64,000 bases of DNA. Source: Candidatus Caribbeanibacter nitroreducens. GTDB taxonomy: Bacteria > Gemmatimonadota > Gemmatimonadetes > Palauibacterales > Palauibacteraceae. The translations under genes were made by a program, and so were the position numbers. The notes beneath the pieces are model-generated. The model was not told where the DNA came from. It saw only the letters and a program-made list of their open reading frames with translations, and ran no database searches. This document shows positions 15,009-32,087 of the stretch, piece after piece; the first letter of the stretch is position 1; every line of letters begins with the position of its first letter. The stretch lies in assembly GCA_947581645.1 (NCBI GenBank), contig CANPVF010000123.1, positions 12,838-76,837 of the forward strand, in the 5' to 3' direction.

Positions 15009-16385
15009 ATGAGCGACGATACGGTGCGCGTGGCCTCCGGCCAGGGGTTCTGGGGCGACTGGCTCGAGGCGCCGAAGCTCCAGGTCCGGCAGGGTCCCAT
15101 CGATTACCTGATGCTGGACTACCTGGCCGAGATCACGATGTCCATCATGCAGAAGCAGCGGTCGCGGAACCCGGATGCCGGCTACGCCCGCGACTTCGTG
15201 CCGCTGATCCGGGAGCTGGCGCCGGACCTGATCGAGCGGGACGTGACGGTGGTCTGCAACGCCGGCGGCGTGAACCCGGAGGGATGCCGGGACGCGCTGG
15301 TGGAGATCCTCGCCGACGTCGACCTCCCACGCCCGCTCCGGATCGGGGTGGTCACCGGCGACGACGTCCTGTCCGACATGGACGGCCTCATCGAGCGGGG
15401 GCACGACATGCGGAACATGGAGACCGGGGAGCCGCTCTCCTCGGTCCAGGACCGGGTGCAGGCCGCCAACGCCTACCTGGGTGCCGGCCCCATCGTCGAG
15501 GCCCTGGAGCGGGGGGCCGACGTGGTGGTGACGGGCCGGTCCACGGACACCGCGCTGACCTACGCGCCCCTGATCCACGAGTTCGGCTGGGGCCCGGAGG
15601 ACTGGGACCGGCTGGCCGCCGGCGTGGTGGCGGGCCACATCAACGAGTGCGGCGCCCAGGCGACCGGGGGGAACACCCTGGCCGACTGGCGGAGCGTGGA
15701 CCTGGTGGCGCCGGGATATCCCATCGTGGAGGCCCGGGAGGACGGCAGCTTCGTCGTCACCAAGCACCCGGGGCTCGGGGGACGGGTGACGTGGGCCACG
15801 GTGACCGAGCAGCTGGTGTACGAGATGGGCGATCCCGCGGAGTACATCACGCCGGACTGCGTCGCCGACTTCTCCACCATCGAGCTGGAGGACCTGGGCG
15901 GCGACCGGGTGGAGGTGAAGGGCGTCGAGGGACGGGAGCGGCCGGAGCAGCTGAAGGTATCCATCGCCTACCGGGACGGGTTCAAGGCCACGGGCACGCT
16001 CACCTACGCCTGGCCGGACGCGGTGGAGAAGGCGCGGCGCGCGGACGAGGTCCTCCGCGGCCGCCTGGAGCGTCTCGGGCTCGAGTTCGACGAGATCCGG
16101 ACGGAGCTGGTGGGGGCCGGCGCCTGCCACGGGTCGCTGGCGGGTGAGCCCCCGGAGGAGCTCCCGGAGGTGGAGATGCGGGTGGGCGTCCGGGCCGATC
16201 GCAAGGAGCACGTGGCCCGGTTCACCCGGGAGCTGGCCCCGCTGATCCTGGCCGGCCCGCCCAGCGTCACCGGCTTCGCCGGCGGCCGGCCCAAGGTGCA
16301 GACGATCATGGCTTTCTGGCCGGCGCTGATCGACCGCGAGGTGGTGGACGACCAGGTGGAGGTCCAGATCGTGGAGGCGGCATGA
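15009..16385 (+). CDS. AtuA-like acyclic terpene utilisation family protein (DUF1446)
   Basis: 458-aa protein with an N-terminal 'VASGQGFWGDW' motif and overall profile recalled for DUF1446/AtuA. Biochemical function unknown. Confidence 0.65.
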   Translation: MSDDTVRVASGQGFWGDWLEAPKLQVRQGPIDYLMLDYLAEITMSIMQKQRSRNPDAGYARDFVPLIRELAPDLIERDVTVVCNAGGVNPEGCRDALVEILADVDLPRPLRIGVVTGDDVLSDMDGLIERGHDMRNMETGEPLSSVQDRVQAANAYLGAGPIVEALERGADVVVTGRSTDTALTYAPLIHEFGWGPEDWDRLAAGVVAGHINECGAQATGGNTLADWRSVDLVAPGYPIVEAREDGSFVVTKHPGLGGRVTWATVTEQLVYEMGDPAEYITPDCVADFSTIELEDLGGDRVEVKGVEGRERPEQLKVSIAYRDGFKATGTLTYAWPDAVEKARRADEVLRGRLERLGLEFDEIRTELVGAGACHGSLAGEPPEELPEVEMRVGVRADRKEHVARFTRELAPLILAGPPSVTGFAGGRPKVQTIMAFWPALIDREVVDDQVEVQIVEAA

Positions 16386-16771
16386 AGGTGCAGCTCAGGG
16401 AGGTCGCCTTCGCCCGTTCGGGCGACAAGGGTGACACGGCCAACGTGGGCCTGATCACCTACACGGAGGAGGCCTACGAGGCGCTGGTCCGGGAGGTCAC
16501 CGAGGAGCGGGTCGAGGGACACTTCGGCGAGCTCTGTCAGGGAGGCGTGGAGCGGTACGAGATTCCGAACCTCCGGGCGCTGAACTTCCTCCTGCACGGC
16601 TCCCTGGACGGCGGCGGAACGCGGTCCCTGATGCTCGATGCCCAGGGCAAGACCTTCTCGACGGCCCTCCTGCGGATGGAGGTGGATCTCCCGGAGGAGG
16701 TCGTCGACGGGGTGCGGGACCGGATGCACGAGGAGCGACGGCGCTGGCGCGAGGGGGACGACGGTGAGTGA
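16382..16771 (+). CDS. DUF4387-family small protein (AtuA-associated)
   Basis: 129 aa, start overlaps the stop of the DUF1446 gene (ATGA). 'FARSGDKGDTANVG' is recalled as the DUF4387 signature; these two families are typically adjacent. Confidence 0.55.
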   Translation: MKVQLREVAFARSGDKGDTANVGLITYTEEAYEALVREVTEERVEGHFGELCQGGVERYEIPNLRALNFLLHGSLDGGGTRSLMLDAQGKTFSTALLRMEVDLPEEVVDGVRDRMHEERRRWREGDDGE

Positions 16772-17528
16772 CCTCGTTCACCTGGACGTGGACGACGCCA
16801 CGGGGGTCGCCTGGGTGGTCATGAACCGCCCGGAGCGGCGGAACGCCCTCAACCGCGGGCTGGTGAGGGACCTGAAGCAGGCGTTCCGGGAGGCCGACGG
16901 GGACGAGCGCGTCTCCGCCGCGGTGCTGGCCGGCTCCGGGCCCGACTTCTGCGCCGGGGCGGACCTGGCGGAGATCCGGGAGGCCGTGGAGGAAGGCATC
17001 ACGGCGAACCTGGCGGACGCCGAGTCGATGGGGGAGCTCTTCGTCCTGCTGCGCGGCCTGGAGACGCCGGTGATCGCGGCGGTCCACGGCCGGGCCCTGG
17101 CCGGCGGGAGCGGCCTGGCGGCGGCCTGCGACATGGTGGTGGCGTCCTCCGGCGCGGAGTTCGGCTTTCCGGAGGTGACCATCGGCTTCGTTCCCGCCAT
17201 GGTGATGGCGATCCTTCGGCGGGCCGTGGGCGAGAAGCAGGCTTTCGAGCTCGTGACCACCGGTGACCGGATCGACGCCGAGCGCGCCCGTGAGGTGGGG
17301 CTCGTGAACCGGGTCTACCCGGCCGACGACTTCGACGACCGGACGGAGGAGTTCGTGGAGGACGTGGCCTCCAACAGCGCCACGGCCATGGCCCTGACGA
17401 AGAAGCTCCTCTACCAGATGGACGGACAGAGCTTCCAGTCGGCGATCCAGGCCGGCGCGGAGATGAACGCCCTGGCTCGCCTCACGGAGGACTGCCAGGA
17501 GGGCATCGCCCGCTTCCTGGACGAGTGA
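16764..17528 (+). CDS. enoyl-CoA hydratase/isomerase (crotonase) family protein
   Basis: Crotonase fold motifs ('NRPERRNAL', 'GPDFCAGADL', 'AAVHGRALAGGSGLAAACD'). GTG at 16764 overlaps the upstream stop; start position is uncertain. Confidence 0.75.
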   Translation: MSDLVHLDVDDATGVAWVVMNRPERRNALNRGLVRDLKQAFREADGDERVSAAVLAGSGPDFCAGADLAEIREAVEEGITANLADAESMGELFVLLRGLETPVIAAVHGRALAGGSGLAAACDMVVASSGAEFGFPEVTIGFVPAMVMAILRRAVGEKQAFELVTTGDRIDAERAREVGLVNRVYPADDFDDRTEEFVEDVASNSATAMALTKKLLYQMDGQSFQSAIQAGAEMNALARLTEDCQEGIARFLDE

Positions 17529-18026: not shown

Positions 18027-18812
18027 ATGTCAGGAACCACCGAGACGAGCGAGCGTGAGCCCGGGGACGGGCCGCCCTCCGATCCGACGCGCTCCCTGGA
18101 CGTCCAGTCCATCGGTCGCCTGGGAGCCGCGGCGGCGTGGATCGCCACACTGGGCGGCGGCGCCGGCTCGTACCTCCTGGTGACCGCCGGGGGGCGCACG
18201 GCGCTGACGGCCGGGATCCTCCTGGGAGTGGTGGCGCTGGCGGGCCTGGCCGTCGCCCTGCAGGCCACCGGGGAGTCGTGGCCCGGCGAGCCGGGATACG
18301 GCGAGGCCGGGGACGGGGAGACCGAGGCCGGCGCCGAGAGGTACCTGCCGCTGGCCGACCGGCTGGCCCTGGGCCTGCTGGGCGGCGCCCTGGGCGGGAT
18401 CGCCGTCACGCTGGGCGTGTGGGTGGCCGACGCCGTCGGGATCGCCGACCTGCTGGGTGTGCAGATCGCCGGCGCCCTGACCGCCACGGCGCTGGGGCTG
18501 CGGGCCTGGTACGGCGCGCTCTGGGGGATCGTGCTGGCCCTCCTCTATCCGCGTCTCCCGGGACGCTCGGCCGTGTCGAGGGGGACGCTGTTCGGCCTCG
18601 CGCCGGCGGTGTACGCGCTCCTGGTCCTGTATCCCCTGGTGCTGGATCTCGGCTGGTTCGGCGCCGACCTCGGCGTCCTCACCTTCGTCTTCGTGGTCCT
18701 CTTCCACCTGCTCTGGGGCGCCGTGGCCGGCGGCCTCTTCCGGTGGGCCGAGGTGACGGACCTCGGCGTGCTGAGCCGTCCCCTGGTGGAGCGTCACTTT
18801 TCCGACGCGTGA
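18027..18812 (+). CDS. hypothetical polytopic membrane protein
   Basis: 261 aa with about 6 hydrophobic Gly/Ala/Leu-rich helices and few Arg, unlike the spurious high-GC ORFs. No family recognised. Confidence 0.5.
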   Translation: MSGTTETSEREPGDGPPSDPTRSLDVQSIGRLGAAAAWIATLGGGAGSYLLVTAGGRTALTAGILLGVVALAGLAVALQATGESWPGEPGYGEAGDGETEAGAERYLPLADRLALGLLGGALGGIAVTLGVWVADAVGIADLLGVQIAGALTATALGLRAWYGALWGIVLALLYPRLPGRSAVSRGTLFGLAPAVYALLVLYPLVLDLGWFGADLGVLTFVFVVLFHLLWGAVAGGLFRWAEVTDLGVLSRPLVERHFSDA

Positions 18813-20457: not shown

Positions 20458-20655
20458 TCAGAGCCGGGCGATGTTGCAGCCGGCCAGGCAGCCCATGATG
20501 TAGAAGCCGCATCGGAACGACTCGAGGTCGTCGCAGTCCGCGGCCGCCCGCTCTCCGCAGTACTCGGTGCAGGGCTGCGCCCACAGGGGCTCGGGACGTG
20601 GTCCCGTGGCCGAGAGCAGCGACAGGGCGGCGAAGGCGACGAGGAAGCGTCTCAT
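20458..20655 (-). CDS. small secreted six-cysteine peptide (paralog 2), 65 aa precursor
   Basis: ATG at 20655 overlaps the TGA of the upstream TlpA-like gene (ATGA), with a GGGAGA RBS. Signal peptide '[27 protein letters not shown]'. Mature 'PCTEYCGERAAADCDDLESFRCGFYIMGCLAGCNIARL' has Cys spacing C-x3-C-x7-C-x7-C-x6-C-x3-C and shares a 'C.AGC' end with paralog 1. Confidence 0.55.
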   Translation of the reverse strand: MRRFLVAFAALSLLSATGPRPEPLWAQPCTEYCGERAAADCDDLESFRCGFYIMGCLAGCNIARL

Positions 20656-21257
20656 GGTGTTCTCCCGCTGGGGGATGAGATCGGGGCGAATCCCGCCGGG
20701 ACGGTCCCGGCGGGCGACACCCGGCGAAGGCGATCGAGAACCCGGTCCACGTCGGCGGCGGTGAGGACGCCGGCCCTGCTCCACACGAGCCGGCCGCTGC
20801 CGTCCACCAGCTGCGTGGTGGGAACGGCCCGGACGCCCATCAGGTGCGTCGTCCTGTTCCTGTCGGCGGGACCGGCGGCCAGGGCACCGGGAAGCTGCTC
20901 CCGCGCGTAACCGAGGGCGGGGAGCCGCTCCTCCAGCCCCACGGCCACGGCCGGAACGCCCGGAGGGCGCTCCTCCAGCAGCCGGCGCCATGCCGGCAGG
21001 TTCCTGGTGCAGGCCGGACAGGTGGACTGGAAGTAGAGGAGCAGGGCGGGCCGGAAGCGGTCCAGCGCCGCCGTGTCGCCCGTGGCGAGCGAGACCAGGC
21101 CCAGGTCGCCCGGCACGGCCTCGCCGACCTCCACCACCCGGTGCGTCCGCCAGGCCGGCAGGAGGCGGTCGCGGACGAGGAGGGCGGCAGCCGCCGTCAG
21201 CAGGACCGCCGTGGCCGCGTTGAGCCATCGCTCGAATCCGATCCTCGTTCGTCCCAT
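20652..21257 (-). CDS. TlpA/ResA/DsbE-family membrane-anchored thiol:disulfide oxidoreductase (thioredoxin fold, CPAC active site)
   Basis: N-terminal TM anchor '[18 protein letters not shown]', thioredoxin '[15 protein letters not shown]' CxxC motif, cis-Pro region '[18 protein letters not shown]' as in TlpA/ResA. Stop overlaps the start of the first Cys-rich peptide gene. Confidence 0.75.
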
Positions 21258-21455
21258 CTCCGCCCCCGTTCCGGCGTGCCGCTCGTGGTGGGTTCTGTTC
21301 GCGACTCACCGTGCCGGCCGCCCTCAACGCCCCTTCAATCGGACCGTCGCCGGCTGCCGCGCCTCCCGGGAGGATTGAGGGCGTCGTGACGCGGACGGCC
21401 CCCGTGCGTTCCGGGAAGGGACCCGGTCCGGGTCGCGAGCAGGGAAGGGAGAGAC

Positions 21456-22967
21456 GTGGAGGCGGCGGGACGGAGGCCGGAGTCGGGGAGGACGGCGGCG
21501 GGGGAGCGGTGGCTCCGAGACGAGCTCGGTCGGGCCCGCCGGGTGCTCCGCCGCGTGTACGGCCACGCCGACTTCCGCCCCGAGCAGCGTCCCGTGGTGG
21601 CGGCCATGATCGAGGGCCGCGACCTGCTCGCCGTGCTTCCCACCGGAGCGGGGAAGTCCGTCTGCTTCCAGGTTCCCGCCCTGCTGGATCGACGGCTCAC
21701 CGTGGTCGTCTCGCCGCTGGTGGCGCTGATGGACGACCAGGCCACCGGTCTCCGGCAGCGGGGTGTCCACGCCGTGGCCGCGGTTCACGGCGGGCTGTCG
21801 GGCCGGCACCGAAGCGAGGCCCTCGACGAGGCCGCGGAGGGGAAGATCAGGCTGCTCTACGTGGCGCCGGAGCGCCTGGGCTCCCGGCGACTGGAGGCCG
21901 CCCTGGGACGCCGGGAGCTGGGGCCGATCGTGGTGGACGAGGCCCACTGCATCAGCCAGTGGGGGCACGACTTCCGGCCGGCCTACCGCCGGATCGGCGA
22001 GTTCGCAGCGTCGGTGGGTGCGCCGGGACTCGCCGCGTTCACCGCCACGGCGACGCCGGCGGTCGAGCGCGACGTGGTCGAGTCGCTGGGGCTGCAAAGC
22101 CCGGCGCGGATCCGGTACCCCGTGGACCGCCCGAACCTGCTCTGGTCGGCCGGGCGCGCCGCCTCCCGGCGGGCGGGGATCGGGCGGCTCGCCCGGCTGG
22201 CCCGCCGATGCCCCGGGGCGGCGGTCCTCTACGTCGGCACCCGGCGCCGGTGCGTGCGGACGGCCGCGGCCCTCCGCCGCCTGGGCGTGGCCGCGGCCCC
22301 GTATCACGCGGGCCTCCCGGACCGGGACCGGCGGACGGTCCAGCGTGCCTTCCTCGCCGGACGGGTGCGGGCGGTGTGTGCCACCTCCGCCTTCGGCATG
22401 GGCATCGACCACGATTCGGTGCGGCTGGTGGCCCACCTGGGGATCCCCGGGTCGCTGGAGGCCTACGTGCAGGAGGCGGGACGCGCGGGGAGGGACGGGC
22501 GCCCGGCACGCTGTCACCTGGTCTCGGTGCCCGGCGAGGTCGAGCTGCAGGAGCGGCTGGCCTCCCGCCACTGGCCGTCCCCGGAAGCGGTGCGGACGGT
22601 GTGGCGGGCGATGCAGCCCGGGCGGCCCCTCCGTCCCCGGGAGGTGGCCCGCCGGTGCCGGACGGTGGGGCCCGGGGAGCGGGCGGGGGCGCTCCGCGTG
22701 CTGCGGCGGGCCGGCCTCCTGCGCCGGACCGGCGAAGGGCAGGAGAAGCGGCTCCTCCGGGCGCCGGATTGCCTGTGGCGCAGGGTGGACCTGGACGAGC
22801 TACGGCGCGGTCGGGAGCGCGCCCTGGGACGGATCGCTCGCGTGGCGGAGTACGCCGCCGCGTCGGGCTGTCGCCGCGCCGCCATCGCGCGCCACTTCGG
22901 GGATCCGGTCCCGCGGTCCTGCCGGCGGTGCGACGGATGCGCTCCGGCGGCGGGGGTGAGTTTCTGA
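21456..22967 (+). CDS. recQ: RecQ-family ATP-dependent DNA helicase
   Basis: Helicase motifs I 'PTGAGKS', II '[19 protein letters not shown]', and the later helicase/RecQ-C region. GTG start with AGGGAAGGGAGAG RBS. Divergent from the TlpA operon. Confidence 0.85.
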
Positions 22968-23041
22968 GAGGCCGCGAGGTCCGTAAGATGACGCCCGGCC
23001 GTCCGGCCGATCCGCCGATCACCAACCAGGAACGCGGGACG

Positions 23042-24268
23042 ATGATAGACACCGACCTGAGCATGTATCTCGAGGACCACCACCGCATGATGCGGGACAT
23101 GGTCCGGGACTTCGCCGAGAGCGAGATCGCCCCGGTGGCCTCCGAGCACGACGAGAAGGAGGCCTTCCCCTGGGAGAACGCCGCCGCCATGGCCGAGCTG
23201 GGTCTGTTCGGCATCCCGATTCCCGAGGAGTACGGGGGGTCGGGCATGGACCTGCTGGCCGCCGTGGTCGCCGTGGAGGAGCTGGCCCGGGTGGACGCGA
23301 GCCACTCCATCACCGTGGGAGCCCACCTGTCGCTGGCCTGTGAGCCGATCCTCCGCTGGGGGACCGAAGAGCAGAAGGAGAGGTATCTCCAGCCCCTGGC
23401 CAGCGGTCAGGCCCTGGGCGGATTCGGCCTCACCGAGCCCGACGCCGGGTCGGACGCCGGAGGCACGAAGACGAAGGCGGAGAGGACCGACGACGGCTAT
23501 CGGCTGAACGGACAGAAGACCTTCATCACCCACGGCGGCGTCGGGGAAGTCTTCATCGTCGCCGCCCGCACCTCCCCCGGCGACAGCTCGGAGGGGATCT
23601 CCGCCTTCCTCCTGAACAAGGAGACGTGCGAGCCGGAGCGCGCCCGGGAGCTCGGCTTCGGACACGCCGGGAGCCTCGAGCCCATGGAGGGCTTCACCTC
23701 CGGCGACAAGCTGGAGAAGCTGGGCTGGAACGCCTCGGACACCCGCGAGCTGATCCTCCAGGACGTCGAGGTGCCGGCGGACAACCTCCTGGGGGAGGAG
23801 GACCGCGGCTTCCGGATCTTCCTGGACACCCTGGACGGCGGCCGGATCGGCATGGCCGCCCACGCCCTGGGGATCGCGCAGGGGGCGTTCGAGAAGGCGG
23901 CCCGCTACACGGACGAGCGGGAGCAGTTCGACCAGAGGATCAACGACTTCCAGGGCGTCCAGTTCATGCTGTCGGAGATGGCGACGAAGATCCACGCCGC
24001 GCGTCTGATGACGTACCACGCGGCGCGGCTGCGGATGGAGGGCGAGGAGCACAAGAAGGAGGCCTCCATGGCCAAGCTCCACGCCTCGGAGACGGCGATG
24101 GACGTCACGACCCGCGCCGTCCAGCTCCACGGCGGATACGGCTACACCCGCGAGTACGACGTGGAGCGGATGATGCGCGATGCGAAGATCACGGAGATCG
24201 GAGAGGGAACGAGCGAGATCCAGAAGATCGTCATCGCCCGGGAGCTCCTGAACGAGCTCCGGGGGTAG
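23042..24268 (+). CDS. acyl-CoA dehydrogenase
   Basis: ACAD family throughout ('[15 protein letters not shown]', '[11 protein letters not shown]', C-terminal '[32 protein letters not shown]'). ATG at 23042 gives a typical ACAD N-terminus '[14 protein letters not shown]'; an ATG at 22988 is an alternative. The 985-aa track ORF's upstream extension is spurious. Confidence 0.85.
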
Positions 24269-24469
24269 GGGCCGCGACGGTGCCCCTGCGGCGGAGACGG
24301 GTCCGCGGCGCCCGCGTCGGCGACGCGTCACGGCCCCGGCCGCCCCGATCGCTGGACGTTCGTCTCGCTCGTACCCGCCGGGCCGCGTGAGCGGCGCGGA
24401 CGCGAGACACTCAGCCTCAAACAGCTCCCGCTGTCCGGCCGGTGGCCGGGCGGTGGGCCGGACGCGAGC

Positions 24470-25966
24470 ATGAACCGAAAAATCCTGATCAACGCCGTGG
24501 GCCACGAGACCCGCGTGGCCATCCTCGAGGACGGCCAGCTCGTCGAGCTCATGTACGAGCGGCCCGAGACCCGCCGCATGGTGGGCGACATCTATCTGGG
24601 CCGGGTGGAGGCGGTGCTGCCGGGCATCCAGGCCGCCTTCGTGGACATCGGCACCGAGAAGGCCGGGTTCCTCCACGCCTCCGACATCGCCGAGCCCGAC
24701 CGGGACGACGACTCCGGCGGCTACACGCCGATCCAGGACCTGGTGGAGCAGGGCGACGAGATCCTGGTGCAGATCACCAAGGAGCCCATCGGCACGAAGG
24801 GGCCCCGGGTCACCAACGAGGTGAGCATCCCCGGCCGCTTCCTGGTGTGGATGCCCTACGGGGACCGGGTCGGGGTGAGCCGGAAGATCGACGACGAGGG
24901 CGAGCGCGACCGGCTCCGCGACATGGCCCGCGAGCTCCTGGACGACGGTCCGGGGGGCGTGATCGTCCGGACGGTGGGCGAGGAGCTCACCCGCGAGACC
25001 TTCGAGCAGGAGCTCCGGACCCTCCAGGGCACCTGGGAGAAGATCCAGGAGCGGGCCGAGGGGATGAGCGCCCCGTCGATGGTCTACGAGGAGGCCAAGC
25101 TCATCTCCGGGATCATCCGGGACGTGTTCAGCGAGCAGGTGGACCTGCTGACGGTGGACTCCCCGGAGCTGGCCCACGAGATCAAGTCCTACCTGGGCCA
25201 GGTGAACCCGGACCTCGTGAACCGGGTGCAGGTCTACCGCAAGGACGTACCGATCTTCGACGACTACGGCATCGAGGAGGAGATCCGGGGCGCCTTCCGG
25301 CGGAAGGTGGGGCTGGCCTCCGGGGGCCACATCATCATCGAGTCCACCGAGGCCCTCGTCGCGGTGGACGTGAACACCGGCCGCTACACCGGCAAGAAGG
25401 ATCCCGAGGAGACGATCCTCCGGACGAACCTGGACGCCGCCAAGGAGATCTCGCGCCAGCTCCGTCTCCGCGACATCGGTGGAATCATCGTCTGTGATTT
25501 CATCGACATGGAGAAGGAGGAGTACCGGGACCGGGTCCAGAACGAGATGAAGACCTGGCTGGGTCGGGACCGGGCGCGCACCAAGGTGTTCGGGATCTCC
25601 GAGCTGGGGCTCCTGGAGATGAGCCGGCAGCGGGTGCGGCCGAACCTCTACCAGGCCATGACCGAGCGCTGCCCCTCCTGCGAGGGCACGGGGCGCGTCC
25701 TGGCGCCGGAGACCCTGGTCCGGCGCATCGAGCGGGCGGTCCGGCGCGCGGCGTCGAAGGGCGAGGACCGCAAGCTCACGATCCGCGTCCATCCCGAGGT
25801 GGCCCTGTATCTGCTGGAGGACGAGCGGGGCTTCCTGGGCCGGATGAAGGAGGAGGCGGGCATCCAGCTGGACGTCCGGGACGATCCGCTCATGCCCATG
25901 GGGGAGTACCGTCTCCTGGCGGCCCCCTCCGACCAGGACGTGACCAGCCGCTACGCCGTGGCGTGA
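24470..25966 (+). CDS. rng: ribonuclease G / RNase E-family endoribonuclease
   Basis: S1 domain N-terminus ('GDIYLGRVEAVLPGIQAAFVDIG'), DNase I-like region ('ALVAVDVNTGRYTGKKD'), and Zn-link 'CPSCEGTGRV'. At 498 aa it matches RNase G size. Confidence 0.85.
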   Translation: MNRKILINAVGHETRVAILEDGQLVELMYERPETRRMVGDIYLGRVEAVLPGIQAAFVDIGTEKAGFLHASDIAEPDRDDDSGGYTPIQDLVEQGDEILVQITKEPIGTKGPRVTNEVSIPGRFLVWMPYGDRVGVSRKIDDEGERDRLRDMARELLDDGPGGVIVRTVGEELTRETFEQELRTLQGTWEKIQERAEGMSAPSMVYEEAKLISGIIRDVFSEQVDLLTVDSPELAHEIKSYLGQVNPDLVNRVQVYRKDVPIFDDYGIEEEIRGAFRRKVGLASGGHIIIESTEALVAVDVNTGRYTGKKDPEETILRTNLDAAKEISRQLRLRDIGGIIVCDFIDMEKEEYRDRVQNEMKTWLGRDRARTKVFGISELGLLEMSRQRVRPNLYQAMTERCPSCEGTGRVLAPETLVRRIERAVRRAASKGEDRKLTIRVHPEVALYLLEDERGFLGRMKEEAGIQLDVRDDPLMPMGEYRLLAAPSDQDVTSRYAVA

Positions 25967-26002
25967 TCCCGGCCGCCCGGAGCCCGTGGCCCGACTCCTG
26001 CA

Positions 26003-26031
26003 TTGACAGGGGGCGCCGGCGAGCGTAAGGT
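26003..26031 (+). promoter_or_regulatory. sigma70-like promoter candidate upstream of rplU-rpmA
   Basis: TTGACA (26003-26008), a 17-nt spacer, then TAAGGT (26026-26031). It lies about 140 nt upstream of the rplU ATG in the rng-rplU intergenic region. Confidence 0.4.
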
Positions 26032-26170
26032 AGCGGGCCGCTGACGCCCCGGGCTCCCGTCCCGGACGCGGCGCCCCAGCGATCGCCACAGCCGGGCTCT
26101 CCGGCGGCACGACGAGGTACCGAGCGACCGTTCGACGACCACCGAGATTCCCCAGACGGCCGAACAAGTC

Positions 26171-26950
26171 ATGTACGCGATCTTCCGCGCGAAAGGAAAG
26201 CAGTTCCGGGCCGAGCCGGACAAGACGATCCGGATCCCGAGCCTGGACGCCGAGCCCGGCGACACCGTGACCTTCGACGAGATCCTCCTCGCCGAGGAGA
26301 ACGGCGACGTCCACGTGGGCCGCCCCACCCTGCACGGAGGAGCCGTGTCGGCGGAGGTGGTGGAGCACGGCAAGGGCGACAAGATCATCGTCTTCAAGCG
26401 GAAGAAGCGGAAGAACTACCGCCGCAAGTACGGCCACCGCCAGCCGTACACGGAGATCCGGGTCGTGGACATCGACCTGGGCGAGCCGGGCGAGGCCGGC
26501 CCCGCGCCGGAGACCGCCGAGGAGGTGGCGCCGGAAGAGGCGCCGGAGCCGACCGCCGCCGAGGAGGCCGGGGAAGAGGCGGAGGAGGCCGCGGCCGACG
26601 AGGTGGACATCACCGACGCCGCCGAGGAGCTGGCCGACGAGCACGGCATCGACGTCGCGACCATCGACGGCACCGGCAAGGGCGGGCGAGTGCTCAAGTC
26701 CGACGTGCAGGACGCCGTCGACGCGCAGGAAGCCGACGAGGCGGAAGAGGAGGACGAGGCGGAGCCGGTCCGGGCCGAGGAGGAGCAGGGGCTCGCGGCC
26801 GAGGACGTGGACATCACCGACGCCGCCCGGGAGCTGGCCGACGAGCACGGCATCGACATCACGACCATCGACGGCACCGGCAAGGACGGGCGGGTTCTCA
26901 AGTCCGACGTGCAGGACGCCGTCGACGCCCAGGCGGGGAGCGAGGAGTAG
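26171..26950 (+). CDS. rplU: 50S ribosomal protein L21 with long C-terminal extension containing two E3-binding-domain-like repeats
   Basis: N-terminal about 105 aa is canonical L21 ('[40 protein letters not shown]...[31 protein letters not shown]'). It is followed by an Ala/Pro/Glu-rich linker and two 42-aa repeats '[42 protein letters not shown]'. rpmA is directly downstream. Confidence 0.8.
26597..26937 (+). repeat. in-frame tandem direct repeat inside rplU (two about 126-nt units, period 204 nt, about 90% aa identity)
   Basis: Units at 26603-26728 and 26807-26932 are near-identical at the nucleotide level and encode peripheral-subunit-binding-domain-like modules. Confidence 0.8.
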
Positions 26951-27104
26951 AGGGACGACCGGCGCCTCCCGGGGGAGCTCCCGGGAACAGCGACGGGGCT
27001 CGCCGGTACCGCCAACCGGCGAGTCGGCCGGACCACGGGAGGTGCGAGCACTCCCGACGCCGGCGACGCGAGCGAAGAGACGCATCACCGACCGCGAGGA
27101 CACG

Positions 27105-27365
27105 ATGGCTCACAAGAAGGGCGCAGGCTCCACTCAGAACGTCCACGACAGCAATCCCCAGTACCGGGGCATCAAGATGTACGGGGGCGAGCGGGCCCGG
27201 CCGGGCAACATCATCGTCCGCCAGTGCGGGACGAAGATCCACCCCGGCATCAACGTGGACCGCGGCAAGGACGACACCCTGTTCGCCACCGAGAATGGCG
27301 TCGTGACGTTCACGAGGCGCGGCGGCGGGCGGAAGTTCGTCAGCGTGGTGCCGGACGAGGCCTGA
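27105..27365 (+). CDS. rpmA: 50S ribosomal protein L27
   Basis: '[29 protein letters not shown]' is the highly conserved L27 N-terminus; 86 aa. Confidence 0.9.
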
Positions 27366-27490: not shown

Positions 27491-29134
27491 ATGCGAGTAC
27501 CCGAGGCCCTGGGGGCGGGCCTGGTGGAGCTGGGCGTGGATCACGTCTTCGGCGTCGTCGGGAGCGGCAACTTCGAGGTCACGAACGCCCTGGAGGCCGC
27601 CGGCGCCCGTTTCGTGGCCGCCCGCCACGAGTGCGGGGCCGTGTGCATGGCCGACGGCTACGCCCGCGTCACGGGCCGCGTGGGCGTGGCCACGGTCCAC
27701 CAGGGCCCGGGCCTCACCAACGCCGCCACCGGGCTCACGGAGGCCGCCAAGGCGCGCACGCCCCTGCTCCTCCTCGCCGGCGACACCTCCGCCGGAGCCG
27801 TGCGCTCCAACTTCCGCATCGACCAGGACGACCTGGCGGAGTCGGTGGAGGCCGTGCCGGAGCGGGTCCACTCGCCGGAGAGCGCCATGGAGGACCTGGC
27901 CCGGGCTCACCGCCGGGCCGTCCGGGACCGACGTGCGGTGGTGCTGAACCTCCCGCTGGACGTGCAGTCCGGCCGGGTACCCGACGGGGCCGAGCTCCCG
28001 CCCTCGCCGTCCCTCCGCCCGCCGCCCCCCGGTGAGGAGGCGGTCCGGGAGGTGGCGGACCTGGTAGAGCGGGCCGAGCGTCCGGCCATCGTCGCCGGAC
28101 GGGGCGCCGTGCTCTCCGGCGCCGGGGAGAGCCTGGAGGAGCTGGGCCGGCGGATCGGGGCCGTCCTGGCCACCTCCGCCAACGGAAACGGCCTGTTCGC
28201 CGACAGCCCGTACGCCGTCGGCATCTCCGGAGGGTTCGCCTCGCCGACGGCCGCGGAGCTCCTGGAGGAGGCCGACCTCCTGCTGGCCTTCGGCGCCTCG
28301 CTCAACATGTGGACCACGCGGCACGGTACCTTCGCCGGCCCGGACACGGCGGTGGTCCAGGTGGACGTGGAGCCCGCGGCCATCGGGGCCGAGCGGCCGG
28401 TGGACGCCGGGATCGTGGCCGACGCCGATCGGACCGCTCGTGCCCTGACGGCCGAGCTGGACCGACGCGGGCACGACGCAACGGGATTCCGGGGCGAGGG
28501 GCTCGAGGACCGGATCGCCGCCGGACGCTGGAAGGAGGAGCCCTACGAGGACGAGTCCACCGCCCGCACCGTGGACCCCCGGACGCTCTCCGTCGCCCTG
28601 GACGAGCTGCTGCCCGAGGAGCGGACCCTGGCCGTGGACTCCGGCCACTTCATGGGATGGCCGGCCATGTACCTGGACGTCCCGGACCCGGCCGGCTTCG
28701 TCTTCAACCAGTCCTACCAGTCGGTGGGGCTGGGGCTCGGAGCGGCCATCGGCGCCGCGGTGGCCCGCCCGGACCGGATCACCGTGGCGGCGCTGGGCGA
28801 CGGCGGCGCCTTCATGGCCCTGGGAGAGCTGGACACCGCCGCGCGCCTCGACCTGCCGCTTCTGGCGGTGGTCTACAACGATTCCGCGTACGGGGCCGAG
28901 GTGCACCACTTCGGGCCCCACGGCGATCCGGTGGACATCGTCCAGTTCCCGGACAGCGACTTCGCGGCCCTGGGCCGGGCCGCCGGCTGCCGGGGCGTCA
29001 CCGTGCGCTCCCGCGACGACCTGGCCCCCGTGGCCGACTGGGCCGGGGAGCCGGACGGCCCCCTGGTCGTGGACGCGAAGGTCACCCCGGACGTCGTCGC
29101 CGGGTGGCTGGAGGACGCCTTCCGAGCCCACTGA
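27491..29134 (+). CDS. thiamine-pyrophosphate-dependent enzyme (acetolactate synthase / benzoylformate decarboxylase-like)
   Basis: Three-domain TPP enzyme layout: N-terminal Pyr domain 'GVDHVFGVVGSGN', central domain, and C-terminal PP domain with 'GDGGAFMAL...NDSAYG' Mg-TPP motif (GDG-x24-NN like). RBS GGAGAGGAAC before ATG. Confidence 0.8.
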   Translation: MRVPEALGAGLVELGVDHVFGVVGSGNFEVTNALEAAGARFVAARHECGAVCMADGYARVTGRVGVATVHQGPGLTNAATGLTEAAKARTPLLLLAGDTSAGAVRSNFRIDQDDLAESVEAVPERVHSPESAMEDLARAHRRAVRDRRAVVLNLPLDVQSGRVPDGAELPPSPSLRPPPPGEEAVREVADLVERAERPAIVAGRGAVLSGAGESLEELGRRIGAVLATSANGNGLFADSPYAVGISGGFASPTAAELLEEADLLLAFGASLNMWTTRHGTFAGPDTAVVQVDVEPAAIGAERPVDAGIVADADRTARALTAELDRRGHDATGFRGEGLEDRIAAGRWKEEPYEDESTARTVDPRTLSVALDELLPEERTLAVDSGHFMGWPAMYLDVPDPAGFVFNQSYQSVGLGLGAAIGAAVARPDRITVAALGDGGAFMALGELDTAARLDLPLLAVVYNDSAYGAEVHHFGPHGDPVDIVQFPDSDFAALGRAAGCRGVTVRSRDDLAPVADWAGEPDGPLVVDAKVTPDVVAGWLEDAFRAH

Positions 29135-29171
29135 TCGACGCGACACTCGAACGCAGCCCGGAGGAGACCGC

Positions 29172-29948
29172 ATGAGCACGCTGGCCGACCTCGCCGCAGG
29201 CATGAGCGACGGCTCCGTGGAGGTGGTGGACCTGACCGCCCCGCTGAGCGAGGAGACACCCGTCATCCAGCTCCCGGAGCCCCTGGCCAACACCCCGGGG
29301 CTGAGAATCGAGGAGCTGAGCCGGTACGACGACCGGGGGCCGGCCTGGTACTGGAACGTCCTGCACGTGGGCGAGCACGCCGGGACCCACTTCGACGCCC
29401 CCGTGCACTGGGTCACCGGCGAGGACGGCCCCGACGTCTCCGAAGTGCCGGCCGAGGACCTGGTGGGGCCCGCGGCGGTCATCGACATGAGCCGGGAGGT
29501 GGAGGAGGACCCCGACTTCCTGCTGGAGGTGGAGCACGTCCGCCGGTGGGAGGAGGAGCACGGCTCGCTGCCCGAGGGAGGCTGGCTCCTCTACCGGACC
29601 GGATGGGACGCCCGCTCGGAGGACGAGGAGGCCTTCCTCAACGTCGACGGGGACGGCGTCTCACACACCCCCGGCATCTCGGTGGAGTGCGCCCGCTGGC
29701 TGGCCCAGGAGGCACCGATCGTCGGCCTGGGCGTCGAGACGGTGGGCACGGACGCCGGGGCCGCGGCGGACTTCGACCCGCCGTTCCCCGTGCACTCTTT
29801 CCTCCTCGGGGCGGAGAAGTACGGCGTCACGCAGCTCCAGAATCTCGACCGGTTGCCGCCGACGGGGAGCATCGTGATGGTGGCACCGCTGCCCGTGGAG
29901 GACGGGTCGGGCAGCCCGTGCCGGGTTCTCGCACTGACGACACACTGA
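29172..29948 (+). CDS. cyclase-family protein (kynurenine formamidase-like)
   Basis: 'HVGEHAGTHFDAPVHW' (HxGTHxDxPxH) motif characteristic of the putative cyclase/arylformamidase family. Confidence 0.75.
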   Translation: MSTLADLAAGMSDGSVEVVDLTAPLSEETPVIQLPEPLANTPGLRIEELSRYDDRGPAWYWNVLHVGEHAGTHFDAPVHWVTGEDGPDVSEVPAEDLVGPAAVIDMSREVEEDPDFLLEVEHVRRWEEEHGSLPEGGWLLYRTGWDARSEDEEAFLNVDGDGVSHTPGISVECARWLAQEAPIVGLGVETVGTDAGAAADFDPPFPVHSFLLGAEKYGVTQLQNLDRLPPTGSIVMVAPLPVEDGSGSPCRVLALTTH

Positions 29949-29958
29949 GGAGGAGAAG

Positions 29959-30231
29959 ATGGTCGCTGCAGTGGTGATGATCGACTGCGTACGGGACGCG
30001 ATCCCCGACGTGGCGAAGGAGGTCGCCGGCATCGAGGGCGTCGCCGAGACGTACTCGGTCTCCGGCAAGCGCGACGTGGTCGCCATCGTCCGCGTCACCG
30101 AGTGGGAGCGGATCGCGGAGGTCGTGACCGAGGGCATCGCCGACGTGGACGGCATCGAGGACACGGAGACCATGGTGGCCTTCCGGGTCCACTCCGACCG
30201 CGAGCTGGCGGCGGCCTACGAGGGGTTCTAG
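29959..30231 (+). CDS. Lrp/AsnC ligand-binding (RAM) domain stand-alone protein
   Basis: 90 aa; 'VVMIDCVRDAIPDVAKEVAGIEGVAETYSVSGKRDVVAIVRV' matches the AsnC_trans_reg/RAM domain pattern. No HTH. Confidence 0.6.
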   Translation: MVAAVVMIDCVRDAIPDVAKEVAGIEGVAETYSVSGKRDVVAIVRVTEWERIAEVVTEGIADVDGIEDTETMVAFRVHSDRELAAAYEGF

Positions 30232-31136: not shown

Positions 31137-32087
31137 TCACCACTGGTAGAAGCCCTCGCCGCTCTTCCTCCCGAGCCGGCCCTCCTCGACCATCTCCACC
31201 AGCAGCTCCGGCGGTTCGAAGCGGTCCCCCTCCAGCTCGCTGTCCAGGTAGCGCGCGATCTCCAGGCGCGTGTCCAGGCCCACCAGGTCGGTGAGCCGGA
31301 GGGGACCGATGGGGTGGTTGTAGCCGAGCTCCATGGCCTGATCGATGTCCTCGGCCGACGCCACGCCCTCCTGGAGCATCCGGATCGCCTCGAGCCCCAG
31401 GACCACGCCCAGGCGCGAGGAGGCGAACCCCGGGGAGTCGCAGACCACGATGGGCGTCTTGTCGGCCTCGCGGGCCAGGGCCACGGCGCGGGCCACCTGC
31501 CGCGGGTCGCTCTCGTCGCCGCGCACCACCTCCACCAGGTCCATGATGTGGACCGGGTTGAAGAAGTGGGTGCCCACGACCCGCTCCCGCGGTTCCAGGG
31601 CCGCGGCCAGGTCGGTGATCGAGAGCGAGGAGGTGTTGCTGGCCAGCAGCGCGTCGTCCGCGGCGTGGGCGGCGGCCTCGGCCAGCACCTCCTGCTTCAG
31701 CTCCAGGTCCTCGGGCACCGCCTCGATGACCACGGCGGCCCCGGCGGCCGCCTCCGACACCGTGCTGCAGGTGGTGAGCCGGGAGAGGGCGCCGTCGCGC
31801 GTCATCGGCGCCACCTTCTCCAGCTCCACGCCCTGCTCCAGGTTGTCGCGGATCCGGGCCACCGCGTGCTCGAGGGCCTCGGGGTCCACGTCCTGCAGGC
31901 GGACGGGATGGCCCGCCATCGCCATCAGCTGCGCGATGCCGTGCCCCATCGTCCCGGCGCCCAGGACGGCCACCAGCCCCTCGGGCGCCGGCTCGTCCTC
32001 CGGCAGGTCCTCGGTGGCCGGGCACTCTTCGAGCACGCCGGCGAAGGAGGTGGGGCGGGGGGATTCCCCGGTCTCGCCGTCATCCAT
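31137..32087 (-). CDS. 3-hydroxyacyl-CoA dehydrogenase (3-hydroxybutyryl-CoA dehydrogenase-like)
   Basis: NAD Rossmann 'VAVLGAGTMGHGIAQ', 'NTSSLSIT', and C-terminal 3HCDH domain 'GPLRLTDLVGLD'. Confidence 0.85.
   Translation of the reverse strand: MDDGETGESPRPTSFAGVLEECPATEDLPEDEPAPEGLVAVLGAGTMGHGIAQLMAMAGHPVRLQDVDPEALEHAVARIRDNLEQGVELEKVAPMTRDGALSRLTTCSTVSEAAAGAAVVIEAVPEDLELKQEVLAEAAAHAADDALLASNTSSLSITDLAAALEPRERVVGTHFFNPVHIMDLVEVVRGDESDPRQVARAVALAREADKTPIVVCDSPGFASSRLGVVLGLEAIRMLQEGVASAEDIDQAMELGYNHPIGPLRLTDLVGLDTRLEIARYLDSELEGDRFEPPELLVEMVEEGRLGRKSGEGFYQW

What the first reader, a model, noticed from the sequence alone, without database searches (positions are those of the whole stretch)
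26171..26950. Ribosomal protein L21 carrying an E2-like linker and two tandem peripheral-subunit-binding-domain (E3-binding)-like repeats
Seen in sequence: rplU encodes a canonical about 105-aa L21. The protein then continues for about 150 aa: an Ala/Pro/Glu-rich segment (like the flexible linkers of 2-oxoacid dehydrogenase E2 chains), followed by two 42-aa modules that are about 90% identical to each other, '[17 protein letters not shown](V/I)(A/T)TIDGTGK(G/D)[15 protein letters not shown]', separated by another acidic linker. The nucleotide repeat has a 204-nt period.

Established knowledge: the module pattern (helix ... G-T-G-x-x-G-R-(I/V)-x-K-x-D-V) is the signature of the peripheral subunit-binding domain of E2 acyltransferases, which docks E3/E1.

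Inference: a protein-protein docking module duplicated on a core ribosomal protein could recruit a partner (for example an RNase, helicase or a lipoamide dehydrogenase-like protein) to the 50S subunit. Directly upstream is the RNase G/E-family gene.
Basis: partly seen in the sequence, partly recalled or inferred. Interest (0 to 1): 0.6.

Follow-up and report, generated by a model that had tools for sequence, protein, structure and literature searches.

The report
Ribosomal protein L21 with PSBD tail
A core ribosomal protein (bL21) of an uncultured marine Gemmatimonadota lineage ends in a long flexible arm carrying two copies of the small docking domain that normally holds pyruvate-dehydrogenase-type complexes together; similar tails occur on two other ribosomal proteins in other gene sets, so some ribosomes may tether a partner that has not been identified.

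Summary
ORF 26171-26950 (+) encodes 259 aa: a full bL21 core, a disordered Ala/Pro/Glu linker and two PSBD (Pfam E3_binding) modules. Pfam scores the pair at E=2.6e-23. An AlphaFold model of one module matches only solved PSBDs (TM 0.75-0.88).

It is not an assembly artefact. All 120 best homologues carry L21+PSBD, with 1-3 modules. The tail is clade-specific: Palauibacter/Carthagonibacter-type Gemmatimonadota have it, while Gemmatimonadaceae and Longimicrobiales have plain 103-112-aa L21.

New here: PSBD tails also sit on bL20 in Rubrobacter (including cultured R. tropicus), on bS16 in an unidentified lineage, and on small phage proteins beside head genes. These modules share a signature rare in the E2 sample (Glu before GTG, no Pro after it, net negative charge). 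One E3/E1-contacting arginine is invariant. A second is kept in single/terminal modules and mostly lost in internal ones.

Best reading: a swinging-arm tether that docks an unidentified partner on the solvent face of the 50S. This is inference only. The RNase G link is unsupported, because tail-less relatives share the synteny. No paper on this was found. I rate it a new variant of a known kind, interest about 0.6.

The parts
26171..26950 (+). rplU coding sequence: bL21 with C-terminal tail, 259 aa plus stop
   Evidence: ORF list. Pfam L21 plus 2x E3_binding. Identical protein P0001 is annotated as 50S L21 in a Ca. Palauibacterales MAG.
26171..26479 (+). bL21 core, residues 1-103, pI 9.4
   Evidence: PF00829 over 1-101, full-length profile match. 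TIGR00061 111.5 bits against a cutoff of 43.7. AF2 pLDDT about 86-97, all-beta.
26480..26596 (+). Linker 1, residues 104-142, Ala/Pro/Glu-rich, 14 acidic and 0 basic residues
   Evidence: Composition. AF2 pLDDT below 50 for 117-142 with no secondary structure. Not alignable between homologues; length 22-90 aa across the family.
26597..26734 (+). PSBD module 1 (internal), residues 143-188; Glu at the Arg135-equivalent position
   Evidence: One of the two Pfam E3_binding stretches. AF2 pLDDT about 90, helices 149-158 and 176-196. Residue mapping from the alignment to 3duf_I/1w3d.
26735..26800 (+). Linker 2, residues 189-210, acidic (11 D+E, 1 K+R)
   Evidence: AF2 pLDDT below 50 for residues 198-206.
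26801..26938 (+). PSBD module 2 (terminal), residues 211-256; keeps Arg at the Arg135- and Arg156-equivalent positions
   Evidence: Best Pfam E3_binding stretch 218-248. AF2 pLDDT 92-97. Module-only model pLDDT 91.3. Foldseek top 35 PDB hits are all PSBDs, e.g. 3rnm_E TM 0.83 rmsd 1.1 A and 1w85_I.
26573..26959 (+). DNA direct repeat, two 183-nt copies (26573-26755 and 26777-26959), period 204 nt
   Evidence: the repeat finder family D1, 85% identity. Codon comparison over the copies gives 4 synonymous and 17 non-synonymous differing codons, most of them in the linker parts.
24470..25966 (+). Upstream RNase E/G family gene (498 aa); context only, not part of the feature
   Evidence: PF10150 E=9e-100. 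The adjacency is conserved in tail-less relatives.
26951..27104 (+). Structured 154-nt rplU-rpmA spacer, three hairpins
   Evidence: RNA fold -78.2 kcal/mol, z = -2.76, 0 of 200 shuffles as stable. In related loci rpmA starts within a few nt of the rplU stop.
27105..27365 (+). rpmA (bL27), operon partner
   Evidence: PF01016 E=8.3e-33.

Best explanation
The gene makes a normal bL21 that sits in the uL13-bL20-bL21 lobe on the solvent side of the 50S. From it projects a 'swinging arm' of about 150 residues: a disordered Ala/Pro/Glu linker, then two small folded PSBD modules separated by a second linker. The architecture copies the anchor-linker-docking-domain logic of E2 chains, and by analogy that of bL12. 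The most likely function is to dock a soluble partner protein onto the ribosome surface through the canonical PSBD face of the terminal module. PSBDs usually bind across the two-fold axis of a dimeric enzyme. The partner is unknown. Charge and stoichiometry arguments make high-affinity capture of E3/E1 of the 2-oxoacid dehydrogenases less likely than a different or weaker partner. Shown here: the domain identity, the fold, the disorder of the linkers, the clade-wide conservation and the parallel tails on other ribosomal proteins. Inferred: that the tail binds anything at all, and where it points on the ribosome.
For: (1) The modules are a real PSBD by sequence and predicted fold.
(2) What is conserved is the module, not the linker. 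The module alignment has a mean column identity of 72%. The linker varies from 22 to 90 aa, and its net charge is negative in 73 homologues, positive in 37 and zero in 10. This argues against a purely electrostatic tail.
(3) In nearly every homologue listed in full, the last module ends 1-13 residues before the C-terminus.
(4) The Arg156-equivalent is invariant in 143/143 modules. The Arg135-equivalent is Arg in 87/99 single modules and Arg/Lys in 14/21 terminal modules, but Arg in only 3/23 internal modules. Internal modules still fold confidently without it. Its retention at the tip therefore looks functional rather than structural.
(5) PSBD tails recur on other solvent-side ribosomal proteins. 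bL20 carries 1-3 modules in Rubrobacter, within a genuine rpmI-rplT-pheST operon. bS16 carries one module within ffh-rpsP-khpA-rimM.
(6) bL20 and bL21 lie in the same solvent-side lobe near the stalk base (PMC9687910).
Against: No partner has been identified, and no tool here could test binding. No gene co-occurs with the tail in the flanks. The bS16 modules have Asn at the Arg156 position, and most bL20 modules have Glu at the Arg135 position, so the canonical contact residues are not universally kept. The invariant residues are largely the fold-determining motif of this tiny domain, so conservation alone does not prove binding. This genome has a generally acidic proteome (median pI 4.79 for 21 proteins), so part of the tail's extreme charge is a genome-wide trait.
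Confidence: 0.42

Rival explanations
1. Canonical function retained. The tail binds dihydrolipoamide dehydrogenase (E3) and/or E1 of the organism's own 2-oxoacid dehydrogenase complexes. This parks these enzymes on ribosomes, or titrates them, and so couples central carbon metabolism to ribosome abundance.
For: The modules pass the Pfam E3_binding threshold by a wide margin. They are about 40% identical to solved PSBDs bound to E3 or E1 (3rnm_E, 1w85_I, 1ebd_C). The terminal module keeps the Arg135 and Arg156 equivalents. Palauibacterales are reported to encode complete or nearly complete TCA cycles (PMC10469786).
Against: The Arg139-equivalent is Glu/Asp in most modules, and the modules are net -3 to -8 against about +1 for the nearest E2 modules. 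From my own knowledge, the E3/E1 sites contacted by PSBDs are acidic. The modules carry a signature rare in the E2 sample: Glu before GTG in 91-100% of ribosomal-protein modules against 10% of E2 modules, and no Pro after GTG against 65% in E2. Inference: ribosomes outnumber E3 dimers, and one PSBD occupies one E3 dimer, so tight binding would strip E3 from the dehydrogenase complexes. No E2, E3 or E1 gene lies in the window or in the 80 related loci (for PSBD-bearing genes).
Confidence: 0.17
2. There is no specific partner. The tail is a hydrophilic 'bristle' that raises the solubility and colloidal stability of a large particle (or of free, very basic bL21 before assembly). The ultrafast-folding PSBD serves only as a compact cap that protects the disordered C-terminus.
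For: The extension of this protein has 54 acidic and 8 basic residues and lowers the pI from 9.4 to 4.3. The host proteome is acid-shifted. The ACAD orthologue is more acidic in tail-bearing lineages (p=1e-7). The same module type is found on other large-particle proteins: bL20, bS16, phasin-like proteins, and small phage proteins encoded beside major head, portal and adaptor genes. A relative (L026) has a 168-aa L21 with an Ala/Glu/Thr tail and no PSBD.
Against: A third of the homologues have net basic, Lys-rich linkers while keeping the module. RNase G orthologues are no more acidic in tail-bearing than in tail-less lineages (pI 6.43 against 6.73, p=0.72). The Arg135-equivalent is kept in terminal modules and lost in internal ones, which is not expected for a passive cap. 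Module sequence is conserved at 72% mean column identity across lineages whose L21 proteins are only about 55-65% identical overall.
Confidence: 0.2
3. The module acts within the translation machinery. It binds a basic ribosomal protein, rRNA or a neighbouring ribosome (for example to cluster or hibernate ribosomes), or it binds mRNA as reported for a chloroplast E2 PSBD.
For: The E3-binding domain of Chlamydomonas DLA2 binds psbA RNA and competes with E3 in vitro (bioRxiv 10.1101/831339). The carriers bL20, bL21 and bS16 are all rRNA-bound, solvent-side proteins. One contig encodes an IF2 N-terminal domain followed by the same module (P0240).
Against: The net negative charge of the modules argues against direct RNA binding. 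P0240 is a single 1-kb contig, and the other Gemmatimonadota IF2 N-terminal fragments lack the module. No structural or co-variation evidence was obtained.
Confidence: 0.12
4. The two-module form is an assembly artefact (expansion of a repeat in a short-read MAG), or the extension is not translated.
For: Close relatives differ in copy number. P0004 (87% identical over the aligned part) has one module, and P0003 has a truncated first module. The two copies here are unusually similar to each other: 90% within the protein against about 68% to the same-position modules of other proteins.
Against: Twenty other proteins from independent JGI, ENA, NCBI and Logan assemblies carry two or three modules with diverged sequences. 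The identical protein is recorded in four sources. The two copies differ at about 10-15% of nucleotides and sit in one uninterrupted frame with GC3 0.94. A one-module tail would leave the main finding unchanged.
Confidence: 0.03

Closest known systems
Peripheral subunit-binding domain (PSBD, Pfam PF02817 E3_binding) of E2 acyltransferases and E3BP
   Same: Same fold and motif: helix, loop, G-T-G-x-x-G-R-(I/V)-x-K-x-D-V, helix. About 40% identity and TM 0.75-0.88 to solved PSBDs. Flanked by Ala/Pro-rich flexible linkers, and tandem copies occur.
   Different: Attached to a ribosomal protein rather than placed between lipoyl and catalytic domains. Net acidic. Glu precedes the GTG turn and no Pro follows it. 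The Arg139-equivalent is acidic. Internal copies lose the Arg135-equivalent. Binding to E3/E1 is untested.
bL12 (L7/L12) stalk protein
   Same: Works alike in design: a ribosome anchor, a flexible Ala-rich hinge, and a small acidic globular domain on the end that captures soluble factors (my own knowledge).
   Different: No sequence or fold relationship. bL12 is multi-copy on uL10 at the factor-binding site, while this tail comes from bL21 on the solvent-side lobe (PMC9687910). bL12's partners are known, and here none is.
Lineage-specific extensions of bL21 and other ribosomal proteins (chloroplast bL21c; long-L21 NCBIfam models NF008915/NF008916; L20 'sunset domain variant' NF051450 and 'L20/unknown domain fusion' NF011109)
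   Same: bL21 tolerates large surface extensions. Spinach bL21c has 97 extra residues on the solvent side (PMC5071890). Curated models exist for long L21 and for L20 fused to extra domains.
   Different: This protein is far below the cutoffs of the long-L21 models (98 against 193 bits; 81 against 281 bits). Rubrobacter L20 is below those of the L20 fusion models. None of those extensions is described as a PSBD.
RNA-binding moonlighting of the E3-binding domain of Chlamydomonas chloroplast E2 (DLA2)
   Same: A PSBD linked to translation: it binds psbA mRNA and competes with E3 (10.1101/831339).
   Different: That is a PSBD within a bona fide E2. The modules here are strongly acidic and sit on the ribosome itself.

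Membership tests
Bacterial ribosomal protein bL21 (PF00829 / TIGR00061) | Full-length match to the family profile above the curated threshold | tested here: met
   PF00829 over 1-101 of a 99-position profile, 125 bits against 27. TIGR00061 111.5 bits against 43.7.
Bacterial ribosomal protein bL21 (PF00829 / TIGR00061) | rplU-rpmA operon context | tested here: met
   L27 gene lies 154 nt downstream. The same RNase G-rplU-rpmA order is found in 26 of 28 tail-bearing and 50 of 52 tail-less related loci.
Bacterial ribosomal protein bL21 (PF00829 / TIGR00061) | Incorporation into the 50S subunit | not testable with these tools
   Assumed from orthology. No second rplU was seen in the window.
Peripheral subunit-binding domain (PF02817) | Profile match above the gathering score | tested here: met
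   Two stretches, 82.4 bits against 23.7, E=2.6e-23.
Peripheral subunit-binding domain (PF02817) | Two-helix PSBD fold | tested here: met
   AF2 model pLDDT 91.3. The 35 best Foldseek PDB matches are all PSBDs, with rmsd about 1 A. This rests on a predicted structure, not a solved one.
Peripheral subunit-binding domain (PF02817) | Basic contact residues for E3/E1 (Arg135, Arg139, Arg156 of B. stearothermophilus E2p; my own knowledge of 1EBD/1W85) | tested here: inconclusive
   Arg156-equivalent 143/143. Arg135-equivalent kept in module 2 and in 87/99 single modules, but Glu in module 1 and Arg in only 3/23 internal modules. Arg139-equivalent is Asp here and Glu in most.
Peripheral subunit-binding domain (PF02817) | Binds E3 and/or E1 | not testable with these tools
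   No complex prediction or same-genome E3/E1 sequences were available.
2-oxoacid dehydrogenase E2 acyltransferase | Lipoyl domain(s) and C-terminal catalytic (2-oxoacid_dh) domain | tested here: not met
   Pfam finds only L21 and E3_binding. All E2 NCBIfam models are far below cutoff, e.g. 70.8 against 722 bits. This protein is not an E2.
Acidic non-E2 PSBD modules on ribosomal and phage proteins (a grouping proposed here, not a curated family) | Glu immediately before GTG, no Pro after GTG, net negative charge, C-terminal position after a low-complexity linker | tested here: met
   Glu before GTG in 132/145 bL21, 291/314 bL20 and 6/6 bS16 modules, against 8/79 E2 modules. Charge medians -5, -7.5 and -7 against +1. 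Terminal position. Caveat: the E2 sample is only the 38 E2 proteins closest to the L21 profile.

The most novel reading that the evidence does not exclude
Several unrelated bacterial lineages, and their phages, use an acidic PSBD subtype as a general surface adaptor. Displayed on flexible arms from ribosomes (bL21, bL20, bS16), phage heads and phasin-like proteins, it would dock one common cellular receptor: either a 2-oxoacid-dehydrogenase component (E3/E1) or an unknown dimeric protein. On this reading, ribosomes in these organisms would be physically coupled to a metabolic enzyme or to a shared scaffold. That would be a kind of ribosome-associated machinery not described so far.
Probability: 0.15. 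Interest if true: 0.85.

Novelty: new variant of a known kind. Interest (0 to 1): 0.6.

Why it matters
Bacterial ribosomal proteins are among the most conserved proteins known. A folded protein-protein docking domain borrowed from the pyruvate/2-oxoglutarate dehydrogenase complexes is not an expected appendage. Here it is conserved across a whole clade on bL21. It also recurs on bL20, which lies in the same 50S surface lobe, and on bS16.

If the tail recruits a partner, it defines a new ribosome-associated factor, or a link between translation and central metabolism. If it does not, it shows that PSBDs can be reused as inert caps on particle-stabilising tails. That would also bear on the phage head proteins and phasin-like proteins that carry the same module.

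The question is directly testable. The bL20 version exists in cultured Rubrobacter, so pull-downs, ribosome proteomics and cryo-EM are feasible without cultivating Palauibacterales.

Tried and rejected
- Exact-sequence lookup of P0001 for genomic context found no record. Context came from the window and the genome scan instead.
- Looking for the organism's own E2 PSBD, as a control for charge and contact residues: a six-frame motif scan of the window plus 80 related loci (about 1 Mb) found PSBD motifs only in rplU.
- The afdb50 fold library was not available, so no UniProt-named carriers could be listed.
- PHROGs gave no family for ten small PSBD-tipped proteins.
- Cluster lookups gave no organism names for the bS16 carriers or their neighbours. 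Their lineage stays unknown (locus GC 56%).
- Ten literature searches found no paper describing a PSBD on a ribosomal protein. They also found no open paper giving the Arg135/139/156 contacts, nor any on the 'sunset domain'.
- Rfam found no ribosomal-protein leader near rplU, only one tRNA in the window. The promoter/terminator scan gave nothing useful.
- Rejected idea, that the tail merely tracks an acidic proteome. The evidence is mixed: RNase G shows no difference and ACAD does. Lys-rich linkers are common.
- Rejected idea, a functional link to RNase G. The synteny is shared with tail-less relatives.
- The ungapped L21-core identity matrix is out of register for some sequences and was not used.
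- The IF2_N+PSBD protein P0240 is a singleton on a 1-kb contig and was not used as evidence.
Full report
**1. What is in the sequence**

ORF 26171..26950 on the + strand starts with ATG and encodes 259 aa. Its codon-position GC (GC3 0.94, GC2 0.44) matches the other real genes of this 71.7% GC window.

Pfam assigns residues 1-101 to Ribosomal_L21p (E=1.3e-36, full profile). It finds two stretches of E3_binding PF02817 (E=2.6e-23, 82.4 bits against a gathering score of 23.7).

The DNA holds a direct repeat of 183 nt, 26573-26755 and 26777-26959. The copies are 85% identical and 204 nt apart. The two protein modules are 90% identical over their 40-aa core and 83% over 46 aa.

The segment between the core and module 1 (residues 104-142) and the one between the modules (189-210) are Ala/Pro/Glu-rich. 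The extension as a whole has 54 acidic and 8 basic residues and brings the protein's pI from 9.4 (core) to 4.3.

The gene upstream is an RNase E/G family protein and the gene downstream is bL27.

**2. Is the module really a PSBD?**

A phmmer search of the tail against PDB sequences returns almost only PSBDs of E2 chains. Examples are B. stearothermophilus E2p (3duf_I, 1w3d, 1ebd_C, 2pdd), human E2b (2coo, 3rnm_E) and Thermus (2eq7_C).

AlphaFold2 on an alignment of 120 homologues gives four regions:
- a confident beta-rich L21 core;
- a linker with pLDDT below 50 and no secondary structure;
- two confident helix-loop-helix modules (pLDDT about 90-97);
- a second low-confidence linker.

A model of the module alone (pLDDT 91.3) was searched against the PDB with Foldseek. 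The 35 best matches are all PSBDs, free or bound to E3 or E1, with TM 0.75-0.88, rmsd about 1 A and about 40% identity. Beyond them nothing is significant.

The protein is not an E2. No lipoyl or catalytic domain is found, and all E2 NCBIfam models are far below their cutoffs.

**3. Distribution**

The protein search found 752 relatives at E<=1e-5. All 120 listed carry PF00829+PF02817. Those with names are Gemmatimonadota, Ca. Palauibacterales, Ca. Palauibacter or Gemmatimonadales MAGs. An identical protein is annotated in a Ca. Palauibacterales MAG.

By motif count, 98 have one module, 19 have two, two have three, and one escaped the strict motif.

A scan of one genome per GTDB species returned 80 rplU loci, all Gemmatimonadota. 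Translating each gave two groups:
- 28 loci have the linker plus PSBD tail. They include Ca. Palauibacter, Ca. Carthagonibacter and many unnamed MAGs.
- 52 loci do not. The Gemmatimonadaceae and Longimicrobiales entries are 103-112 aa with no tail. One MAG (L026) has a 168-aa L21 with an Ala/Glu/Thr tail and no PSBD. Two loci (L027, L056) run off the contig end, so their tail status is unknown.

Palauibacterales is the uncultured marine PAUC43f group (PMC10469786).

The tail is thus a clade-specific, conserved feature, not an assembly artefact. Only the copy number in this genome could still be questioned. Close relatives have one module (P0004) or a truncated first module (P0003). The two copies here are more alike (90%) than positional orthologues are (about 68%), which suggests a recent duplication or gene conversion.

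**4. What is conserved**

The module alignment has 72% mean column identity.

The linker is not alignable. It ranges from 22 to 90 aa with composition A 31%, E 20%, P 17%, K 10%. Its net charge is negative in 73 homologues, positive in 37 and zero in 10.

In nearly every homologue listed in full, the last module ends 1-13 residues before the C-terminus.

The alignment to B. stearothermophilus E2p allows a mapping onto the three arginines that contact E3 and E1 in 1EBD/1W85. Their role is from my own knowledge; the numbering checks against the 3duf_I coordinates. The results:
- The Arg156-equivalent is invariant (143/143 modules).
- The Arg135-equivalent is Arg in 87/99 single modules and Arg/Lys in 14/21 terminal modules. 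In internal modules it is Arg in only 3/23 and otherwise E, A, I or G.
- The Arg139-equivalent is Glu in most modules and Asp in this protein.

In this window, module 1 has Glu and module 2 has Arg at the Arg135 position. Internal modules still fold confidently. Retention of that arginine at the tip therefore looks like a functional constraint rather than a structural one.

**5. Parallels found here**

A profile of the module was searched against 1.84 billion representative proteins. It found 13,256 hits at E<=1e-3. Among the best 150 are many carriers that are not E2.

*bL20.* P0220 is Ribosomal_L20 plus two E3_binding modules, encoded in an rpmI-rplT-(SpoU)-pheS-pheT operon. A search with it listed 120 proteins, all with L20+PSBD. 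Named ones include Rubrobacter sp. MAGs and cultured Rubrobacter tropicus. Of the 119 homologues, 95 have two modules, 13 have three and 11 have one. A second set of shorter (about 230-aa) L20+PSBD proteins also exists.

*bS16.* Four representative proteins of 239-264 aa (plus two further cluster members) are Ribosomal_S16, a long acidic linker and one C-terminal module. They sit in an ffh-rpsP-khpA-rimM operon. Their lineage could not be named.

*Comparison of the modules.* Scored against the L21-module profile, the medians are 72 bits for bS16, 83.5 for L21 itself, 44 for bL20 and 40 for E2.

The ribosomal modules share features that are rare in the E2 modules sampled:
- Glu precedes the GTG turn in 132/145 bL21, 291/314 bL20 and 6/6 bS16 modules, against 8/79 E2 modules.
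- Pro follows GTG in 51/79 E2 modules and in none of the ribosomal ones.
- Median net charge is -5 (bL21), -7.5 (bL20) and -7 (bS16), against +1 (E2).

bL20 and bL21 belong to the same solvent-side lobe near the stalk base, together with uL13 (PMC9687910). bS16 is on the small subunit, so the theme is solvent-exposed ribosomal proteins rather than one spot.

*Other carriers.* These include phasin-like proteins with 3-4 modules and a Ser/Thr kinase with three.

There are also many small proteins of about 90-170 aa on phage contigs. Twenty-six IMG/VR contigs carry the module, mostly at the C-terminus. Where neighbours could be named they are major head or virion structural proteins, portal, or head-tail adaptor. 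One lies in a replication module.

**6. Context**

The order RecQ-ACAD-RNase G-rplU-rpmA is found in tail-bearing and tail-less Gemmatimonadota alike. The RNase G adjacency is therefore ancestral and says nothing about the tail. No gene in the flanks co-occurs with the tail.

The TPP enzyme, cyclase and AsnC-type genes downstream of rpmA are absent from that position in all related loci.

This genome's proteins are unusually acidic: the median pI of 21 non-ribosomal proteins is 4.79. Part of the tail's extreme charge is therefore a genome-wide trait. Across lineages the picture is mixed. RNase G orthologues are equally charged with and without the tail (p=0.72), while ACAD is more acidic in tail-bearing lineages (p=1e-7).

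**7. How it most likely works**

The anatomy is anchor, disordered linker, then one to three small folded modules at the very end. This is the swinging-arm design of E2 chains and, functionally, of bL12.

The conserved element is the module, not the charge or length of the arm. A known binding hot spot is kept specifically in the terminal module. Similar tails have been added to three different solvent-side ribosomal proteins.

I therefore consider a docking tether for a soluble partner the best explanation (confidence about 0.4). Only the structure and the conservation are shown. Binding is inferred.

Three points argue against tight E3/E1 capture as the partner:
- the acidic character of the modules;
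- the signature that is rare in the E2 sample;
- stoichiometry, which is inference: ribosomes would outnumber and sequester E3, since one PSBD occupies one E3 dimer.

It still cannot be excluded (about 0.17).

A passive solubilising tail with the PSBD as a mere cap is a serious rival (about 0.2). The module's presence on other large particles (phage heads, phasin-like proteins) and the tail-only variant L026 make it attractive. The Lys-rich linkers and the terminal-specific arginine make it less so.

Binding within the translation machinery or to RNA has one precedent, the DLA2 E3-binding domain (10.1101/831339). It is disfavoured by the negative charge (about 0.12).

An assembly artefact is very unlikely (about 0.03).

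**8. Novelty**

Databases already tag these proteins with both Pfam domains. NCBI has curated models for other long L21 forms and for L20 fused to other domains. Neither the L21 here nor Rubrobacter L20 reaches the cutoffs of those models.

Ten full-text searches found no description of a PSBD on a ribosomal protein.

I rate it a new variant of a known kind: a known domain and a known type of ribosomal-protein extension, in a combination that appears unstudied, with recurrent occurrences that make it worth an experiment.

Noticed in passing
L081:582-1427 (P0220); P0342 (Rubrobacter tropicus): Ribosomal protein bL20 carries a linker and mostly two or three C-terminal PSBD modules in Rubrobacter and related Actinomycetota. 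Of 119 homologues, 95 have two modules, 13 have three and 11 have one. It lies in a normal rpmI-rplT-pheST operon. bL20 is in the same 50S lobe as bL21.
   Followed up: partly
L082:6001-6786 (P0430); also P0408, P0421, P0441: Ribosomal protein bS16 with a very long acidic linker and one C-terminal PSBD, in an ffh-rpsP-khpA-rimM operon. The module is almost of the L21 type (72 bits against the L21-module profile) but has Asn in place of the invariant Arg of G-R. The lineage could not be identified (locus GC 56%).
   Followed up: partly
L084:1399-1902; L085-L110 (IMG/VR contigs); L083:6987-7451: Small phage proteins of about 90-170 aa end in the same acidic PSBD type. Where neighbours are recognisable, they lie next to major head or virion structural, portal or head-tail adaptor genes, the usual place of head decoration proteins. 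One lies in a RecT/DnaB replication module. No PHROG family matches them.
   Followed up: partly
P0122, P0123, P0126, P0402 and others; P0130: Other non-E2 PSBD carriers: proteins with a weak phasin-like N-terminal region and three or four PSBD modules (some with G-L instead of G-R), and a Ser/Thr protein kinase with three C-terminal PSBDs.
   Followed up: no
P0240 (ENA, 1044-bp contig): An IF-2 N-terminal domain followed by an Arg-rich stretch, an acidic linker and an L21-type PSBD. The IF2_N part resembles Gemmatimonadota IF-2, but other such fragments lack the module. It is a single short contig and could be chimeric.
   Followed up: partly
L026:8001-8507 (OY282356.1, Gemmatimonadota MAG chromosome): A 168-aa L21 with an Ala/Glu/Thr-rich repetitive tail and no PSBD. 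It is either a tail that lost its module or an independent extension.
   Followed up: no
window 26951-27104: The rplU-rpmA spacer is 154 nt and folds into three GC-rich hairpins (-78.2 kcal/mol, z -2.76). In related loci rpmA follows rplU within a few nucleotides. It may be a processing or attenuation element specific to this genome.
   Followed up: partly
window 27521-30231: A TPP-dependent enzyme (acetolactate-synthase-like, three TPP_enzyme domains), a putative cyclase and a small AsnC-type ligand-binding protein sit directly after rpmA. None of the 80 related loci has them there; those that extend far enough have enoyl-CoA hydratase and 3-hydroxyacyl-CoA dehydrogenase genes downstream instead. 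This looks like a local insertion.
   Followed up: partly
window, whole: Acid-shifted proteome: the median pI of 21 non-ribosomal proteins is 4.79. RNase G has pI 4.97 here against a median of 6.4 in relatives. This suggests a salt-adapted sub-lineage.
   Followed up: partly
window 22514-27103 (- strand) and 21311-24268 (+): Very long ORFs (1529 aa and 985 aa) overlap real genes on the opposite strand or in other frames. They are artefacts of the 72% GC content, not genes.
   Followed up: yes
window 39297-39380 (+): One tRNA gene, the only Rfam match in the window at gathering threshold.
   Followed up: no
window 15009-17528, 23111-24268, 31137-32087: Cluster of fatty-acid and terpene degradation genes around the ribosomal operon: AtuA, enoyl-CoA hydratase, acyl-CoA dehydrogenase and 3-hydroxyacyl-CoA dehydrogenase. 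Two conserved ORFs without Pfam matches lie at 18027-18812 (+) and 20652-21257 (-).
   Followed up: no
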